Source: an uncultured archaeon
Lineage (GTDB): Archaea; Asgardarchaeota; Lokiarchaeia; Sigyniarchaeales; SOKP01
NCBI GenBank assembly: GCA_964583985.1
Contig: CAZOYD010000066.1
Span: 1-18,092 of the forward strand
Length of the DNA: 18,092 nucleotides
Direction of reading: 5' to 3'
A model generated the notes under the pieces. It did not search any database and was not told the origin of the DNA. It saw nothing but the letters and a program-made list of their open reading frames with translations. How positions within the stretch are numbered: position 1 is the stretch's first letter; each line of letters begins with the position of its first letter. This document shows, one piece after another, positions 12,970 to 17,355 of this stretch. The translations under genes and the position numbers were made by a program.

Positions 12970-13012
12970 TTAATCCACCATGTCTTCAAAAGCTTCAAGG
13001 ACTAACTCAATT
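12970..13012 (-). repeat. Direct repeat of the SCP2 3' exon (copy of 14205-14247)
   Basis: ttaatccaccatgtcttcaaaagcttcaagg(a/g)ctaactcaatt; 42/43 identical, 1235 bp apart. Confidence 0.95.
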
Positions 13013-13132
13013 CCCACATCTGGTTGTGACACTTTAGCAAAGCGGAGTCTGTGTCGTAATATCACCGAAGGATCCAGATTACATTACGGCACAATCGTAG
13101 CGGCGCGAGTTGCGTACAACCTGATGAAGTAA
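13013..13132. other. GC-rich (~48%) long imperfect hairpin; possible ncRNA, intron or element end
   Basis: Outer arms catctggttgt (13017-13027) / acaacctgatg (13116-13126). Inner arms tgtgtcgtaat (13050-13060) / attacggcaca (13083-13093). Confidence 0.65.
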
Positions 13133-13180
13133 AATGATTACAATTTTTAAAAATGATTTATATGCATGCGTGATTGAACC

Positions 13181-13274
13181 TAATTCTTCTGAACCCATGA
13201 TATCGAGAATTGAAGTAGCGATTCCATTTGCAGGATAAAATGGAATGATCCCTTTAATTGGCAATGCTTGACTA
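13181..13274 (-). pseudogene. Internal fragment of an alpha/beta hydrolase gene, homologous to 11051-11144
   Basis: Ungapped alignment 78/94 nt. Translates IKGIIPFYPANGIATSILDIMGSEEL versus IKGIVPLYPANGIATSILGIPGSEDL in the intact gene. Confidence 0.9.
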
Positions 13275-13775
13275 TTAGTGAATGTTTTCTTCATACTTTT
13301 TCAAATCAATAAAGAGAATAGAGTTATTCTTCCGATCTCGAAACCATTCAAATCCCATATTTACCTTTTCTAAGTAATAGTTTTTCATATCTAGAGTTGT
13401 TTCCACTAACAATAAGCGACACGCAATGATTTTACTTGCTTCTAATGATTTTTCTAAGGCGATTTTTATCAATGTATTTCCGAGGTTCTTATGTTTATAC
13501 TTTTTATCTACACCTAAGCGACCGAGAAGTACTATTGGTACTTTATCAATTCCAAATATACGTGCATCTCCTGTATTTAACTGGGAAGCAGAAAGTGTTA
13601 AAAAAGCAATTACAATATTAGAATCTTTCAAACAAAATACATATGTTTTTGAAAGCTTTCGTTCTTGATTGAGGAGAGCTAGATCAGTTAAAAAAGAGTT
13701 AATGACTCGTTCCCCACAGTCAAAAGATTCAATAATAGCGTCTTTATCTAATTGTTTAAAAAGTAAATCCGTCAA
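13275..13775 (-). CDS. GNAT-family toxin (AtaT/TacT-like acetyltransferase)
   Basis: SFDCGERVINSFL, SKTYV, PIVLLGRLGVDKKYKHKNLGNTLI, CRLLLVE are characteristic of GNAT toxins of type II TA systems; TTG start. Confidence 0.82.
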   Translation of the reverse strand: MTDLLFKQLDKDAIIESFDCGERVINSFLTDLALLNQERKLSKTYVFCLKDSNIVIAFLTLSASQLNTGDARIFGIDKVPIVLLGRLGVDKKYKHKNLGNTLIKIALEKSLEASKIIACRLLLVETTLDMKNYYLEKVNMGFEWFRDRKNNSILFIDLKKYEENIH

Positions 13776-13789
13776 TTGAAAAAGCCCTT

Positions 13790-14035
13790 TTATAATTTCT
13801 CAATTTCTTCTAATGATATTGTATATTCCTTCTCTTCCAAATTTTGATAGAACTGGTGTGAAGATTTAAAAAAAGAATGAGTTCTTTCATCAATTACTCG
13901 ATTTTCAAGTTTGTTTTCAAGATCTTGAATCTCGTGTTCGGTTAAAATGATCTCTTCAGAATCATCAAAGTAGAAGTTTTCTTCAGATATTTTCTCTTCT
14001 TTTTTCATTTGTTTTTCTTTTGGGGTTGTCATCAT
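13790..14035 (-). CDS. Putative acidic antitoxin upstream of the GNAT toxin
   Basis: 81 aa, very acidic, 14 nt upstream of the toxin. EEIILTEHEIQDLENKLEN resembles the toxin-binding C-terminal part of DUF1778 antitoxins. Confidence 0.6.
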   Translation of the reverse strand: MMTTPKEKQMKKEEKISEENFYFDDSEEIILTEHEIQDLENKLENRVIDERTHSFFKSSHQFYQNLEEKEYTISLEEIEKL

Positions 14036-14204: not shown

Positions 14205-14692
14205 TTAATCCACCATGTCTTCAAAAGCTTCAAGGGCTAACTCAATTTAAGAGGTTTGAGGGATTTCCTCAAATTTTATCTCTTGGAAAGCCATTGCGTC
14301 TTGAAGATTACCTTCTACTGTAATATCACCAGCCATATAGGCACTTGTGGCGTTTTAGCGCTGTTTAGAATTTAAACTAGCTCAACTTCGCCAAACAACA
14401 TGCCTGCACCAACTTCTTGGGTTGCGGAAAATGTGAAAGATGGATTGTCAACAACACCTTCTCCGAATTCAAGAGTGCCATCATGAGCTTTTAGCCAAAA
14501 TTTAGCGTCTTTATCGGTTATGATCATTTGAATAACGATATCCATGTCTTCTAATTCTTCTTTGAGGTCTTCGTTTTCTTCAGCAATTTGCTTGAATAGT
14601 TCGAATACTTTTAAAGAATCAGCAGGTGATGCTGCTGCTGCTCCAGCGTCAAACTTTCCTTTCATTTCATTAATTAATGCTTCGTCAACCAT
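14205..14692 (-). CDS. SCP2 sterol/lipid-carrier protein, 142 aa after removal of two BHB introns (exons 14692-14383, 14353-14277, 14246-14205)
   Basis: Exons 310+77+42 = 429 nt give MVDEAL...FGEGVVDNPSFTFSATQEVGAGMLFGEVDATSAYMAGDITVEGNLQDAMAFQEIIELALEAFEDMVD*. This includes the SCP2 C-terminal signature G.xD...AxMxGxIxVxG that is missing from the listed 110-aa ORF. Confidence 0.88.
14247..14276 (-). other. 30-nt BHB-type intron 2 in the SCP2 mRNA
   Basis: CAA-GAGA-TA^A-aaTTTGAGG aaatc CCTCAAAcc-TCTT-AA^A-TTG; removal gives GAG ATA ATT GAG (E-I-I-E) and deletes an in-frame TAA. Confidence 0.85.
14354..14382 (-). other. 29-nt BHB-type intron 1 in the SCP2 mRNA
   Basis: TGGCG-AAGT-TG^A-GCTAGTTTA aattc TAAACAGC-GCTA-AA^A-CGCCA; removal gives GTT GAC GCC (V-D-A). 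Confidence 0.82.
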
Positions 14693-15121
14693 TTTGATTT
14701 TCAACCTTCTTTTATAGTTTTGTACTTATTTTGATTGTTAGGTTATAATAAATACTATTAAGTATAACTTTTTACTATATAAAAAGATTATATTTCTTCT
14801 TATATAATATAGTAAAATTGGAATGCATTACTTTTTTAAATTACTATTTTTTTCGTCGGTAATAGAAAAGTTTTAGAGGGAGAAACATGATAAATATCTT
14901 GATAAGGGTAAAAACTTAAAAAGTTGTTTTCAAAAATGTAAATGCATTAACAACTTTAAATATACGTGAAGAGATGAAGGATTTTTCTTGCGTGTATTAC
15001 TTAAACCATAAAAATAAAAGCATTTAATCAATGAGAATAATAAAACTTTGCTTTAAAATAAATTAATACACTCCTATCATATTTTAATTCAGAATCATTG
15101 CTTTTCTGGGTGTTTTGACAA

Positions 15122-16276
15122 ATGATAAAGAAGAACAGAAAAGATTATTTAGAAATCAAGAATGAATTGAAGATTTATTTTGATAAAATTTTTGATAATT
15201 ACCCTGATATACCAGAGAACCTTCCTAGCTTAAGAAATATAGGTAATATGTTCAAAGTCGCAAGAAACTTTGTAAAGAAGTATCTCTTAAGTGAATATAT
15301 TTCATTGCACTTTGATGAAGATCCTTCTGAATTATACTCCCGTTACTGGCCAAAAACGCGTTCTGAAAAAATAGATGAGATTCATGATAAACTAATTGAA
15401 GAATTTAGTTATCAATTTAATAGGTATTATCCCAATGAAATAGAATGTATTTCTACAATAGGGCAATTATCTAAAAAATATGGAGTTGGATTTATTTCTA
15501 TCAAAGTATGGCTAATGGATTATATTAAAGAAATATTTGAAATTAATATCGCTGAAAAGATATATACTGAAATCTTTCCAACATTATCATCACAATCACC
15601 TTCTTATACTGATATCAAATGCCTTATTGAGAGCAGACAAGGTCAGTTGTTAACATGTGAAACTGACTGGAATAATATGAAAGAACAGCCTACAAAAAGA
15701 TATATTGACATAAAATGCAAATTTGGGCACAATTGGAGCCCTACCATTAACGGTTTATTATATGATAATCGATGGTGTCCAACTTGTAATGAAAGTAAAG
15801 GAGAACAGTTAACACGAATGTATATGGAGGCAATCTTTTCAAAGATTTCTGGGAATCCTATAAAATTTCCAACTGTTACACTTTATAATGCATTTCATAT
15901 TGATGTTAATAGAGGAGGAAGGATGCATTTTGACGGATATAATCCAAATGTAAAAATAAGGAAAAAATTTTTCAGAATTGCTTTTGAATATGATGGAAAA
16001 CAGCATGATACATACCCAAATTCAATCCATAGAAAATTTTCAGAATTTCAAGAACTGCAGAAAAGGGATAAGTTAAAAGAAACTATATGTAATCTACTTA
16101 AATTTAAAACAATCTTAATTAGAATTAAAGAAATCTTGGGTTTTAATTGTTCTAATCCTCAAAGTTTTCAAACTGAAATTATTCGACAATTTCAAAAAAA
16201 CACGGGAATAAAGATTTCTAATTTGCCTATGCTGGAGTATAATATACTTGAAAATAATTTAAATAGAAAAAAGTAA
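15122..16276 (+). CDS. Putative free-standing endonuclease: two N-terminal HTH-like repeats, Zn ribbon, Vsr/DUF559-like nuclease domain
   Basis: KCKFGHNW...WCPTC Zn ribbon; ESKGE, FDGY, IAFEYDGKQH, QKRDKLKETIC, LIRI nuclease-type motifs. Confidence 0.75.
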   Translation: MIKKNRKDYLEIKNELKIYFDKIFDNYPDIPENLPSLRNIGNMFKVARNFVKKYLLSEYISLHFDEDPSELYSRYWPKTRSEKIDEIHDKLIEEFSYQFNRYYPNEIECISTIGQLSKKYGVGFISIKVWLMDYIKEIFEINIAEKIYTEIFPTLSSQSPSYTDIKCLIESRQGQLLTCETDWNNMKEQPTKRYIDIKCKFGHNWSPTINGLLYDNRWCPTCNESKGEQLTRMYMEAIFSKISGNPIKFPTVTLYNAFHIDVNRGGRMHFDGYNPNVKIRKKFFRIAFEYDGKQHDTYPNSIHRKFSEFQELQKRDKLKETICNLLKFKTILIRIKEILGFNCSNPQSFQTEIIRQFQKNTGIKISNLPMLEYNILENNLNRKK

Positions 16277-16372
16277 ACAGATAAAAAATAGTACCCATAA
16301 TTCTAATATTAAGTGATTAGAAACATTATACCCTCCTCTTATATAAATTCCAGAAATTTTTATTTCTAGAAT

Positions 16373-17245
16373 ATGCTTGAAAAAAGTGAGTCTCTTGCTG
16401 AGATGTTAGGGATAATCCTTGGAGATGGTCGTCTGAGATGGGATCCCACAGGAAGGCATTATCAATTGGATGTCATTCTAAATTGGGTTGAAGAAAAAGA
16501 TTATGTCCTTTATGTTAATGATCTTATGATGAGATTATTCCAATATAAACCTAAATTATCAAGGCAAATAAATGAGGATGGTTCAATAGGAAAGGGTATA
16601 TATCTTACTATTTATAGCAAAAAACTAGTCTATGAACTAATATCCTTAGGTTTAATACCTGGAAATAAAGTAGAGAACCAAATCAAAGTCCCAAAATGGA
16701 TTAAGGAATGCAAATCCTATATGATAGCGTGTTTAAAAGGACTATTTGATACTGATGGTTCCATATTTCCTGTCATAAAAGAAGGTGCAATTAAAATGAA
16801 TTTTAAAAATGGATCTCTATCTTTAGTTGAAGATTTCAAAGAAATGACAGAATTATTTGAAATCAAGACATCAAAAATATCTTCTTACTCTGAGATTACG
16901 GAAAAAACAAATGAATTCTCAATTACCTTTATTTTACAGATCCAAGCAAGAAACCAAGTGAAAAAGTTCCTAGATATTATAAATCCTATGAAATGGGAAT
17001 ATCGAAAAGAATATTTATTAAAAATAATAACGAATCCTTTTGATTATACTATGGAATATTATTCTGATAGTGATATTGAAAATTGGATATTACTTTATGA
17101 AAAATTTAAATCTTATAGGCTAGTTAGTGAATGCATATTGAAAGAACAAGGAAAATCTCCGAAAATTGATACAATACGATTACGAATAAAAAAATATTTT
17201 GGTGAGAAATATGAAAAATGGCTAAAAGATGTTAAAAGTATGTAA
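16373..17245 (+). CDS. Free-standing two-motif LAGLIDADG homing-endonuclease-like protein
   Basis: LAEMLGIILGDG and ACLKGLFDTDG motifs, with GL.PGNK...IKVPKWI between them. No intein splicing blocks. Stop lies 17 nt from the tRNA 3' end. Confidence 0.88.
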   Translation: MLEKSESLAEMLGIILGDGRLRWDPTGRHYQLDVILNWVEEKDYVLYVNDLMMRLFQYKPKLSRQINEDGSIGKGIYLTIYSKKLVYELISLGLIPGNKVENQIKVPKWIKECKSYMIACLKGLFDTDGSIFPVIKEGAIKMNFKNGSLSLVEDFKEMTELFEIKTSKISSYSEITEKTNEFSITFILQIQARNQVKKFLDIINPMKWEYRKEYLLKIITNPFDYTMEYYSDSDIENWILLYEKFKSYRLVSECILKEQGKSPKIDTIRLRIKKYFGEKYEKWLKDVKSM

Positions 17246-17279
17246 TTGAATTGATAAGTGATTGGCGCCCACACCGGGA

Positions 17280-17309
17280 ATTTCATCGCGTATGGTTTTC
17301 ATACGCGGA
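17280..17309 (-). other. tRNA intron at position 59/60 (T-loop), near-canonical BHB
   Basis: CCGGG-TTCA-AA^T-cCGCGTATG aaaac CATACGCGa-TGAA-AT^T-CCCGG; splicing restores TTCAAAT. Confidence 0.9.
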
Positions 17310-17355
17310 TTTGAACCCGGGTCGCAGGAGTGACAGTCCCGAATGCTGGACCGGA

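What the first reader, a model, noticed from the sequence alone, without database searches (positions are those of the whole stretch)
14354..14382. SCP2 intron 1: 29-nt, frameshifting, stop-containing insert with BHB geometry
Seen (minus strand): outer helix TGGCG/CGCCA formed by exon 1 and exon 2, central AAGT/GCTA (3 pairs plus one A-A mismatch), bulges TG^A and AA^A, intron stem GCT(A)GTTTA/TAAACAGC. Canonical cuts regenerate the Asp codon of the GEVDA motif across a phase-1 junction. Inference: the imperfect central helix needs a relaxed-specificity EndA or makes splicing inefficient, which could be a regulatory step. The unspliced RNA encodes a truncated SCP2.
Basis: partly seen in the sequence, partly recalled or inferred. 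Interest (0 to 1): 0.85.

Follow-up and report, generated by a model that had tools for sequence, protein, structure and literature searches.

The report
tRNA-type mini-intron in Asgard SCP2 gene
A small lipid-carrier (SCP2) gene of an uncultured Lokiarchaeon, a close archaeal relative of eukaryotes, is broken by a 29-base insert shaped like a tRNA intron, which almost certainly has to be cut out of the messenger RNA; the papers I could search confirm such splicing inside an archaeal coding sequence for only one gene (cbf5).

Summary
Window 14382-14354 (minus strand) is a 29-nt insert that shifts the frame and carries a stop, inside an SCP2 gene of a 3.8-Mb Lokiarchaeial (Promethearchaeota) MAG.

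With its exon flanks it forms a relaxed bulge-helix-bulge (BHB) motif:
- a 5-bp exon-exon helix;
- a central helix of 3 pairs plus an A.A mismatch;
- two 3-nt bulges;
- an intron hairpin.

Cutting after the second base of each bulge, and removing a second 30-nt insert (14277-14248), gives a 429-nt CDS. Its product is identical to a 142-aa protein encoded uninterrupted in related metagenome contigs.

The downstream exons show 10 synonymous and 0 non-synonymous differences from that allele. Twenty inserts at six or seven sites in orthologues all place a BHB central helix at the junction the protein requires.

The genome encodes a catalytic EndA alpha subunit that keeps the Lys/Arg of the broad-specificity loop, a non-catalytic beta subunit, and RtcB. 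The rubredoxin, RNase HII and uL11 genes of the same genome carry similar inserts.

No RNA data were available, so splicing is inferred. The "regulatory" idea is untested.

The scan has already noted the same kind of insert in many other Asgard and DPANN genomes. The closest case in print is the crenarchaeal cbf5 intron.

The parts
14383..14692 (-). SCP2 exon 1: ATG at 14692 through the first base of the Asp codon (103 codons plus 1 nt)
   Evidence: ORF list. Pfam SCP2 profile positions 1-72 of 101. Identical to residues 1-103 of P0002.
14354..14382 (-). Intron 1: 29 nt, phase 1, frameshifting. The unspliced frame meets TAA at 14374-14372.
   Evidence: Appears as a 29-nt gap against the intron-less alleles L003-L008. 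BHB geometry. Only the predicted junction has the central helix.
14389..14393 (-). Outer helix h, 5' strand (UGGCG, exon 1)
   Evidence: Pairs 5/5 with 14348-14352. The extended exon-exon duplex of -16.2 kcal/mol is the strongest among 95 distinct orthologues.
14385..14388 (-). Central helix H, 5' strand (AAGU, exon 1)
   Evidence: 3 of 4 pairs with 14356-14359. The A.A mismatch is at the outermost position.
14382..14384 (-). 5' bulge UG|A. Predicted cut between 14383 and 14382.
   Evidence: Position follows from the BHB rule (cut after the 2nd bulge base). It gives G|AC, the Asp codon.
14360..14381 (-). Intron hairpin h' (3 bp, a bulged A, 5 bp, 5-nt loop)
   Evidence: Present in the MFE fold.
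14356..14359 (-). Central helix H, 3' strand (GCUA, intron)
14353..14355 (-). 3' bulge AA|A. Predicted cut between 14354 and 14353.
14348..14352 (-). Outer helix h, 3' strand (CGCCA, exon 2)
14278..14353 (-). SCP2 exon 2 (last two bases of the Asp codon through ...AFQE and the first two bases of the Ile codon)
   Evidence: Translation DATSAYMAGDITVEGNLQDAMAFQEI matches P0002.
14248..14277 (-). Intron 2: 30 nt, in frame, carries a TAA. Central helix AGAG/CUCU, bulges AU|A and UA|A, 7-bp hairpin. Boundaries are equivalent over 3 positions.
   Evidence: 30-nt gap against L003-L008. BHB. Shared with L036 with 2 substitutions.
14205..14247 (-). SCP2 exon 3 with stop codon (14207-14205)
   Evidence: Completes the 429-nt CDS, which equals P0002.

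Best explanation
Window 14382-14354 (minus strand) is an archaeal bulge-helix-bulge intron inside the coding sequence of an SCP2-family gene of a Lokiarchaeon.

Proposed mechanism:
1. After transcription, the end of exon 1 and the start of exon 2 pair with each other (outer helix).
2. Four exon-1 bases pair with the last bases of the intron (central helix), and the intron body forms a hairpin. This exposes two 3-nt bulges on opposite strands.
3. The (alpha-beta)2 tRNA-splicing endonuclease EndA cuts after the second base of each bulge.
4. RtcB joins the exons (G|AC, restoring Asp) and probably circularises the 29-nt intron.
5. A second 30-nt intron, 76 nt downstream, is removed in the same way. 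The mRNA then encodes the full 142-aa protein.

Shown here: the geometry, the exact restoration of the protein, selection on the downstream exons, the same architecture at other sites in orthologues, and the presence of the enzymes.

Inferred: the cleavage and ligation themselves.
For: 1. Removing 14382-14354 and 14277-14248 gives a 429-nt CDS whose product equals P0002. P0002 is encoded without interruption on six metagenome contigs.

2. Against that allele, exon 1 has 24 synonymous and 0 non-synonymous codon differences, and exons 2+3 have 10 and 0. Among orthologues that all carry an insert after SAY, the downstream codons differ by 10-17 synonymous and 0-3 non-synonymous changes.

3. This is the only orthologue in the genome. 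The next paralogue is 50% identical.

4. The BHB sits at the protein-defined junction. Its chance rate is 4.1e-5 per position pair, and only the predicted register has the central helix.

5. Twenty inserts of 21-50 nt lie at six or seven sites within the last 45 codons of orthologues:
- Each has a central helix of at least 3 pairs at a junction that yields the conserved protein.
- For the 13 inserts tested, the inner three pairs form at such a junction, against a local null of 5.4% per position pair.
- Each has a hairpin of different sequence.
- Seven of those 13 show the BHB core in the unconstrained MFE fold.

6. Exon-exon pairing is stronger in genes that carry the intron at that site:
- This intron: -16.2 kcal/mol against a median of -7.8, reached by none of 94 others.
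- Site D: 3 of 3 at or below the 1st percentile.
- Site B: 3 of 5 beyond all 90 others.

7. The exon strand of intron 2's central helix (AGAG) is present only in the intron-bearing alleles. The closest intron-less allele (L003-L008) has GGAA there through synonymous changes.

8. The enzymes are encoded:
- An EndA alpha subunit with Tyr/His/Lys and the K-P-R of the Crenarchaea-specific loop (K44/R46 of A. pernix).
- A beta-like paralogue with Tyr->Phe and His->Ser.
- RtcB.

9. Other genes in this genome carry the same kind of insert:
- Rubredoxin: 32 nt, a textbook BHB that restores CPVCG.
- RNase HII: 30 nt inside DEAGR|GP.
- The single-copy uL11 gene: 31 and 35 nt, restoring GGKASGGPPIGPAVGP.

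10. The same sequence is assembled in at least five independent metagenome contigs.
Against: - No transcript data: no spliced junction read and no circular intron.
- The spliced junction sequences were not found in metagenome contigs. This is uninformative, because those are mainly DNA assemblies.
- The central helix has only 3 pairs, one of them G.U, and is absent from the MFE fold. The fold energy is not unusual against shuffles (z -0.63).
- The short outer helix is partly a by-product of the Gly and Ala codons.
- Intron 1 is seen only in one near-clonal lineage. The synonymous differences from the intron-less allele could therefore predate the insertion. The argument for long-term selection rests on the older introns at other sites.
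- My crude genome-wide BHB-plus-ORF scans found no enrichment over frame-shifted controls. I cannot say how common such introns are in this genome.
Confidence: 0.86

Rival explanations
1. The insert is spliced as above, but splicing is deliberately inefficient or conditional. Intron retention (a 106-aa truncated SCP2) versus splicing would then be a regulatory switch.
For: The central helix is imperfect (3 pairs, one G.U, one A.A mismatch). The BHB conformer lies 1.8 kcal/mol above the MFE. In Haloferax, removal of a 5' UTR BHB intron seems to matter for expression of HVO_1309 (PMC7714728).
Against: Imperfect central helices, with the same outermost mismatch, recur at other sites in orthologues (site D). 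The host EndA carries the loop that confers broad specificity, so an imperfect helix need not mean poor cleavage. The intron is absent from the closest alleles, which encode the identical protein, so no conserved regulatory role is evident. The truncated product lacks the last 29 of 101 SCP2 profile positions.
Confidence: 0.08
2. The insert is a recent, unspliced disruptive insertion. The gene would be a fresh pseudogene, and the BHB-like fold a coincidence or a relic of the inserted element.
For: Intron 1 occurs only in one near-clonal lineage. No RNA evidence exists. Part of the outer helix is inherent to the codons.
Against: Two separate inserts in one gene are both excisable exactly by the same cutting rule. 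Intron 2 is shared with a diverged species whose exon 3 is intact. About 9% of orthologue clusters are interrupted in the same way and stay under purifying selection. There is no other orthologue in the genome. The single-copy uL11 gene of the same genome carries such inserts. The exon-exon duplex here is the strongest in the family.
Confidence: 0.04
3. The full-length protein is made without RNA cutting, by translational recoding (ribosomal bypassing or frameshifting), or the insert is removed by another intron type (group I/II or spliceosomal-like).
For: A hairpin within a coding gap recalls the T4 gene 60 bypass. That comparison rests on my own knowledge and was not tested.
Against: The junction splits a codon (G|AC), so no take-off and landing codon pair can reproduce Asp. 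The only GT...AG pair (14386...14361, 26 nt) leaves CGC TAA in frame. At 29 nt the insert is far too short for group I or II ribozymes, and Rfam finds nothing in the window. Different inserts at other sites share only the BHB architecture.
Confidence: 0.02

Closest known systems
BHB intron in the cbf5 pre-mRNA of Crenarchaeota (Desulfurococcales, Sulfolobales; Watanabe 2002; Yoshinari 2006; Yokobori 2009, PMC2738675)
   Same: A short (16-44 bp) insert inside a protein-coding sequence, with a BHB or relaxed BHB at the exon-intron borders. It occurs in hosts with a hetero-oligomeric EndA, must be removed to give an active protein, and shows gain and loss among relatives.
   Different: A different gene and a different phylum (Asgard/Lokiarchaeia). 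Here there are two introns in one 429-nt CDS, and six or seven sites used across orthologues. Presence or absence differs between alleles that encode the identical protein. cbf5 splicing was shown experimentally; here it is inferred.
Non-canonical BHB introns of Asgard tRNA genes (Valentin-Alvarado 2024, PMC11291895; bioRxiv 10.64898/2026.10.13.758758)
   Same: The same lineage, the same presumed enzymes ((alpha-beta)2 EndA, RtcB), similar lengths, relaxed motifs that depend on exon pairing, and many independent gains.
   Different: Those introns interrupt tRNAs, where the cloverleaf supplies the exon helix. Here the exon helix is built from synonymous codon choices in an mRNA. Neither paper reports protein-coding hosts.
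BHB intron in the 5' UTR of Haloferax volcanii HVO_1309 (Schwarz et al. 2020, PMC7714728)
   Same: An EndA substrate in an mRNA. The excised 46-nt intron was detected as a circle, and cleavage was confirmed in vitro.
   Different: It lies in the untranslated leader, so no reading frame depends on it. The host is a euryarchaeon whose EndA I did not examine.
IRE1/RtcB unconventional splicing of HAC1/XBP1 mRNA in eukaryotes (my own knowledge; RtcB-HAC1 reference listed in PMC5829648)
   Same: It works alike: protein-only, non-spliceosomal removal of a short, frame-changing intron from an mRNA. Cuts are made in stem-loop structures and the ends are joined by a tRNA ligase.
   Different: The nuclease (IRE1) and the substrate motif are different, and the event is stress-regulated. 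The two are not homologous at the endonuclease step.

Membership tests
Archaeal EndA-dependent (BHB) intron | [quoted passage not shown] | tested here: met
   Bulges UG|A and AA|A are exactly 4 positions apart. The central helix has 3 standard pairs plus A.A, which makes it a relaxed form.
Archaeal EndA-dependent (BHB) intron | Flanking helices: an exon-exon helix h and an intron helix h' | tested here: met
   h is 5/5 and extends to a -16.2 kcal/mol duplex. h' is 3 bp, a bulged A, then 5 bp.
Archaeal EndA-dependent (BHB) intron | Cuts after the second base of each bulge give a functional mature RNA | tested here: met
   The predicted cuts give a CDS whose product is identical to the uninterrupted homologue P0002.
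Archaeal EndA-dependent (BHB) intron | The host encodes a splicing endonuclease able to accept relaxed motifs, and an RNA ligase | tested here: met
   EndA alpha (207 aa, best PDB match A. pernix alpha 3p1z_B, K-P-R of the specific loop kept). A beta-like subunit (205 aa, Tyr->Phe, His->Ser). RtcB at E 3e-167.
Archaeal EndA-dependent (BHB) intron | Cleavage and ligation observed (spliced RNA, circular intron, or in vitro cutting) | not testable with these tools
   No transcriptome is available. Searches for the spliced junctions in metagenome contigs found nothing.
cbf5-type archaeal pre-mRNA intron | Located inside a protein-coding sequence that is non-functional unless the insert is removed | tested here: met
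   A frameshift and stop follow codon 103. The SCP2 profile is truncated at position 72 of 101.
cbf5-type archaeal pre-mRNA intron | The host gene is cbf5 and the lineage is Crenarchaeota | tested here: not met
   The gene is an SCP2-family protein. The closest relatives are Promethearchaeota/Lokiarchaeota MAGs.
Repeated mobile element (MITE-like insertion) | Multiple copies in the genome, or terminal and target-site repeats | tested here: not met
   Neither intron sequence recurs in the 3.8-Mb genome beyond 13-mers. No flanking direct repeat is visible.

The most novel reading that the evidence does not exclude
Lokiarchaeial mRNAs are populated by a turnover-prone class of EndA-spliced micro-introns that are gained, lost and possibly relocated on short evolutionary time-scales.

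Evidence within this one 142-codon gene family:
- Six or seven sites are used within 45 codons.
- Alleles that encode the identical protein differ by two introns.
- Exon codons appear tuned to build the splicing helix.
- The hairpin core of intron 1 (15 of 16 nt) recurs in an intron at a different site, 17 nt downstream, in a same-genus relative. This hints at intron movement between sites.

If this is general, the closest prokaryotic relatives of eukaryotes routinely splice protein-coding messages, including those of essential genes such as uL11.
Probability: 0.5. Interest if true: 0.9.

Novelty: new member of a known kind. Interest (0 to 1): 0.76.

Why it matters
- **Scarcity in print.** In the papers I could search, splicing inside an archaeal coding sequence is confirmed for a single gene, cbf5 (PMC2738675; PMC7714728 says so explicitly). 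A two-intron gene in an Asgard archaeon extends this to the lineage closest to eukaryotes. So do the similar inserts in rubredoxin, RNase HII and the ribosomal protein uL11 of the same genome. The splicing would be protein-only: EndA is the ancestor of the eukaryotic TSEN enzyme, and RtcB is the ligase.
- **Annotation.** Gene callers report truncated proteins. About 9% of the orthologue clusters of this SCP2 are cut short at intron sites, so Asgard proteomes and completeness estimates are distorted.
- **A natural experiment.** The intron-bearing and intron-less alleles occur in the same sample. This allows study of how such introns arrive and how exon sequence adapts to them.

Tried and rejected
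1. **Genome-wide counts.** I ran three BHB-plus-ORF-restoration scans of the 3.8-Mb genome.
   - The three versions were a strict BHB, a relaxed BHB with a hairpin, and the central helix only with codon-usage and no-start filters.
   - Passes equalled the frame-shifted controls: 643 vs 655, 1587 vs about 1554, and 5267 vs about 5190.
   - A per-locus comparison of 592 split-ORF candidates also showed no excess (34 vs 67, with twice as many decoy pairs).
   - The filters exclude the verified cases: small genes, introns near N-termini, and a Met soon after the junction. The scans therefore have no power, and I give no intron count.
2. **Spliced junction 24-mers** of both introns, searched in metagenome contigs: 0 hits. 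Uninformative.
3. **GT-AG reading:** the 26-nt candidate leaves an in-frame TAA.
4. **Rfam and ARAGORN on the window:** nothing found.
5. **Outer-helix co-adaptation from the 5 bp alone:** rejected as weak, because 27 of 95 intron-less genes also pair 5/5 with G.U. I replaced it with the 20-nt duplex comparison.
6. **Truncated matches in G022, G015 and G113:C67** turned out to be contig ends, not introns.
7. **Naming the inserted two-gene cassette** as a toxin-antitoxin pair: only a weak GNAT hit (E 0.007) and no NCBIfam hit. Left unnamed.

Full report
**What is at the coordinates**

On the minus strand an ORF starting at ATG 14692 encodes 103 residues of an SCP2-family protein. It matches Pfam SCP2 profile positions 1-72 of 101. 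The ORF then runs into ...GEVELV and TAA at 14374-14372.

The rest of the domain lies downstream in another frame (ATSAYMAGDITVEGNLQDAMAFQEI). After a further in-frame stop comes IELALEAFEDMVD.

- Outer helix UGGCG/CGCCA.
- Central helix AAGU/GCUA, with three standard pairs and an A.A mismatch.
- Bulges UG|A and AA|A.
- Hairpin GCU(A)GUUUA/UAAACAGC.

The explicit BHB structure is worth -11.7 kcal/mol. The MFE of -13.5 differs only by lacking the central helix.

**Organism and enzymes**

The window is contig C66 of a 3.8-Mb, 30% GC genome. The closest protein hits are annotated Promethearchaeota/Lokiarchaeota.

The genome has two EndA paralogues:
- One (207 aa) aligns end to end with the catalytic alpha subunit of Aeropyrum pernix EndA (3p1z_B, E 1e-36). 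It keeps the Tyr/His/Lys positions and the K-P-R that corresponds to K44/R46 of the Crenarchaea-specific loop. That loop confers broad substrate specificity.
- The other (205 aa) has Phe and Ser at the Tyr and His positions, as expected of a structural beta subunit.

This agrees with the published statement that Asgard archaea have (alpha-beta)2 EndA with the L1 insert (PMC5829648). RtcB is present.

**Independent definition of the junction**

A search with exon 1 returned a 142-aa protein, P0002, that is 100% identical over the query. It is encoded without interruption on six JGI contigs, L003-L008.

The DNA alignment shows exactly two gaps, of 29 and 30 nt, plus scattered synonymous differences. 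Removing 14382-14354 and 14277-14248 gives 429 nt that translate to P0002 exactly.

For intron 1 only two cut registers give this product, and only the BHB-predicted one has the central helix. A GT...AG reading leaves a stop. The junction splits a codon, so ribosomal bypassing cannot produce Asp.

**More than chance?**

Across the whole genome, 4.1e-5 of 29-nt-spaced position pairs show the same three features: the inner three central pairs, a 5/5 outer helix, and three hairpin pairs in register.

That figure overstates the case, because the GGN and GCN codons make the outer helix likely. Of 95 intron-less orthologues, 27 pair 5/5 with G.U allowed.

A fairer comparison uses 20 nt on each side of the junction. 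The window's exon-exon duplex is -16.2 kcal/mol, against a median of -7.8, and none of 94 other orthologues reaches it.

**Selection**

- Against L003, exon 1 has 24 synonymous and 0 non-synonymous differences. Exons 2+3 have 10 and 0.
- Intron 1 is confined to a near-clonal lineage: L087-L091 are identical, and it was not seen in 40 same-genus genomes. These differences might therefore predate it.
- The older introns settle the point. Genes that all carry an insert after SAY differ downstream by 10-17 synonymous and 0-3 non-synonymous codons.
- There is no second orthologue in the genome.

**The family picture**

Truncated homologues in the protein search led to more loci. Twenty inserts of 21-50 nt occupy six or seven sites within the last 45 codons:

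| Site | Position | Loci |
|---|---|---|
| A | EV\|D | this intron |
| B | SAY\|M | L092, L093/L094, L095/L096, L097, L038, L120, L122 |
| C | TVE\|G | L098-L100 |
| D | DA-A\|UG | L095, L098, L101, L124 |
| E | QEI | window intron 2, L036, L122 |
| E' | 2-3 nt upstream of E | L102/L103, L125-L127 |

Common features of these inserts:
- Each has a central helix of at least 3 pairs at a junction that restores the conserved core. For the 13 inserts tested, the inner three pairs form there, against a local null of 5.4% per position pair.
- At site D the BHB rule yields the conserved Met, where naive in-frame reading gives Leu.
- Hairpin sequences differ between lineages while the architecture is kept.
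- In 7 of 13 cases the unconstrained MFE fold already shows the BHB core. The rest are within 0.7-2.6 kcal/mol.
- Many of these motifs are relaxed, for example with a 5-nt 3' bulge at sites B and D.
- Exon-exon pairing is markedly stronger in intron-bearing genes at sites A, B and D.
- For intron 2, the exon strand of the central helix (AGAG) is present only in the intron-bearing alleles. L003 has GGAA there through synonymous changes.

**Other genes of the same genome**

Following first-stage notes, I checked three genes:
- Rubredoxin (C12) is cut at WVCPV by a 32-nt insert with a strict BHB: CCGG/CUGG, bulges UA|A and UA|U, and an 8-bp hairpin. Removing it restores CPVCG.
- RNase HII (C1) has a 30-nt, TAA-containing insert inside DEAGR|GP. 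Its BHB central helix is made entirely of G.U pairs.
- The single uL11 gene (C27) lacks its N-terminus in the ORF. Upstream blocks are joined by a 31-nt insert (UGGG/CCCA) and a 35-nt insert (GCCU/AGGU, outer helix 5/5). Joining them gives GGKASGGPPIGPAVGP, and the second was the top-scoring BHB in an unbiased local scan.

An essential single-copy gene interrupted in this way argues that the cell does splice such RNAs.

**What I could not show**

There are no RNA data. Searches for the spliced junctions in metagenome contigs were empty. My genome-wide scans had no power, so I cannot count the introns.

**Literature**

- cbf5 introns are 16-44 bp. In 2009 no archaeal pre-mRNA splicing was confirmed for other genes (PMC2738675).
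- A 2020 paper states that cbf5 was the only previously reported additional BHB intron (outside tRNA and rRNA). It adds a 46-nt intron in a Haloferax 5' UTR (PMC7714728).
- Asgard papers report abundant tRNA introns but no protein-coding ones.
- Ten full-text searches found no report of BHB introns in Asgard coding sequences. The library is incomplete, so this is not proof of absence.
- Within this scan the same kind of insert has been noted and followed up in many other Asgard and DPANN genomes. I did not let that move the scores.

**Verdict**

This is a real, well-supported BHB intron in an Asgard protein-coding gene: a new member of the cbf5 kind, in a gene that carries two such introns. 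Splicing is inferred with high but not complete confidence.

Noticed in passing
window 14248-14277 (-): A second 30-nt insert lies in the same SCP2 gene, in frame and carrying a TAA. Central helix AGAG/CUCU, 7-bp hairpin, long exon-exon helix. It is shared, with 2 substitutions, with a same-genus species (L036 / G089) that lacks intron 1. The exon strand AGAG is absent from the closest intron-less allele (L003-L008).
   Followed up: yes
window 14360-14381 (-) versus L120 (G014:C29, site-B intron): The hairpin core of intron 1 (GTTTAAATTCTAAACA) matches 15 of 16 nt of an intron that sits 17 nt further downstream (after SAY) in a tandem SCP2 copy of a same-genus genome. None of 5000 shuffles reached this score, but about 190 pairs were compared and hairpin symmetry inflates the match. 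This may be intron relocation between sites.
   Followed up: partly
window 12970-13066 (-) and 13171-14035: A displaced second copy of the SCP2 3' end lies about 1.1 kb downstream of the gene: GGTGATATTAC, then 43 unrelated nt, then the last 13 codons and the stop. Between the two lie a two-gene cassette (an 81-aa ORF at 13790-14035 and a 166-aa weakly GNAT-like ORF at 13275-13775) and a 104-nt fragment of the neighbouring BD-FAE hydrolase gene (13171-13274). The intron-less contigs L003-L008 have none of this. It looks like an insertion that replaced the gene's 3' end.
   Followed up: partly
L036:2172-2219: In the species that carries only intron 2, an intron-less fragment encoding MAFQEIIELALEALED lies about 220 nt downstream of the gene. 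This is a second case of a displaced SCP2 3' end. Replacement of the 3' end by recombination may be one way introns enter or leave this gene.
   Followed up: no
window 14975-17310 (+): About 2.3 kb is present here but absent from L003/L004, where the flanks are 86 nt apart. It carries a 384-aa ORF with no family match (15122-16276) and a free-standing 290-aa LAGLIDADG ORF (16373-17245). This is probably a mobile insertion upstream of SCP2.
   Followed up: partly
G000 whole genome (C27 35660-35950, C12 58100-58340, C1 127200-127829): The uL11 gene (two inserts checked, 31 and 35 nt), rubredoxin (32 nt) and RNase HII (30 nt) are interrupted by BHB-placed inserts that restore conserved motifs.
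   Followed up: yes
G000 whole genome: ARAGORN finds only 22 tRNA genes, 13 of them with introns, in a genome scored 100% complete. Most tRNA genes are probably hidden by non-canonical or multiple introns, as reported for other Asgard archaea.
   Followed up: no
L087 and L004 (JGI sample 3300031364): The intron-bearing allele and an intron-less allele that encodes the identical protein co-occur in one sample. They differ at about 8% of coding bases, all synonymous.
   Followed up: partly
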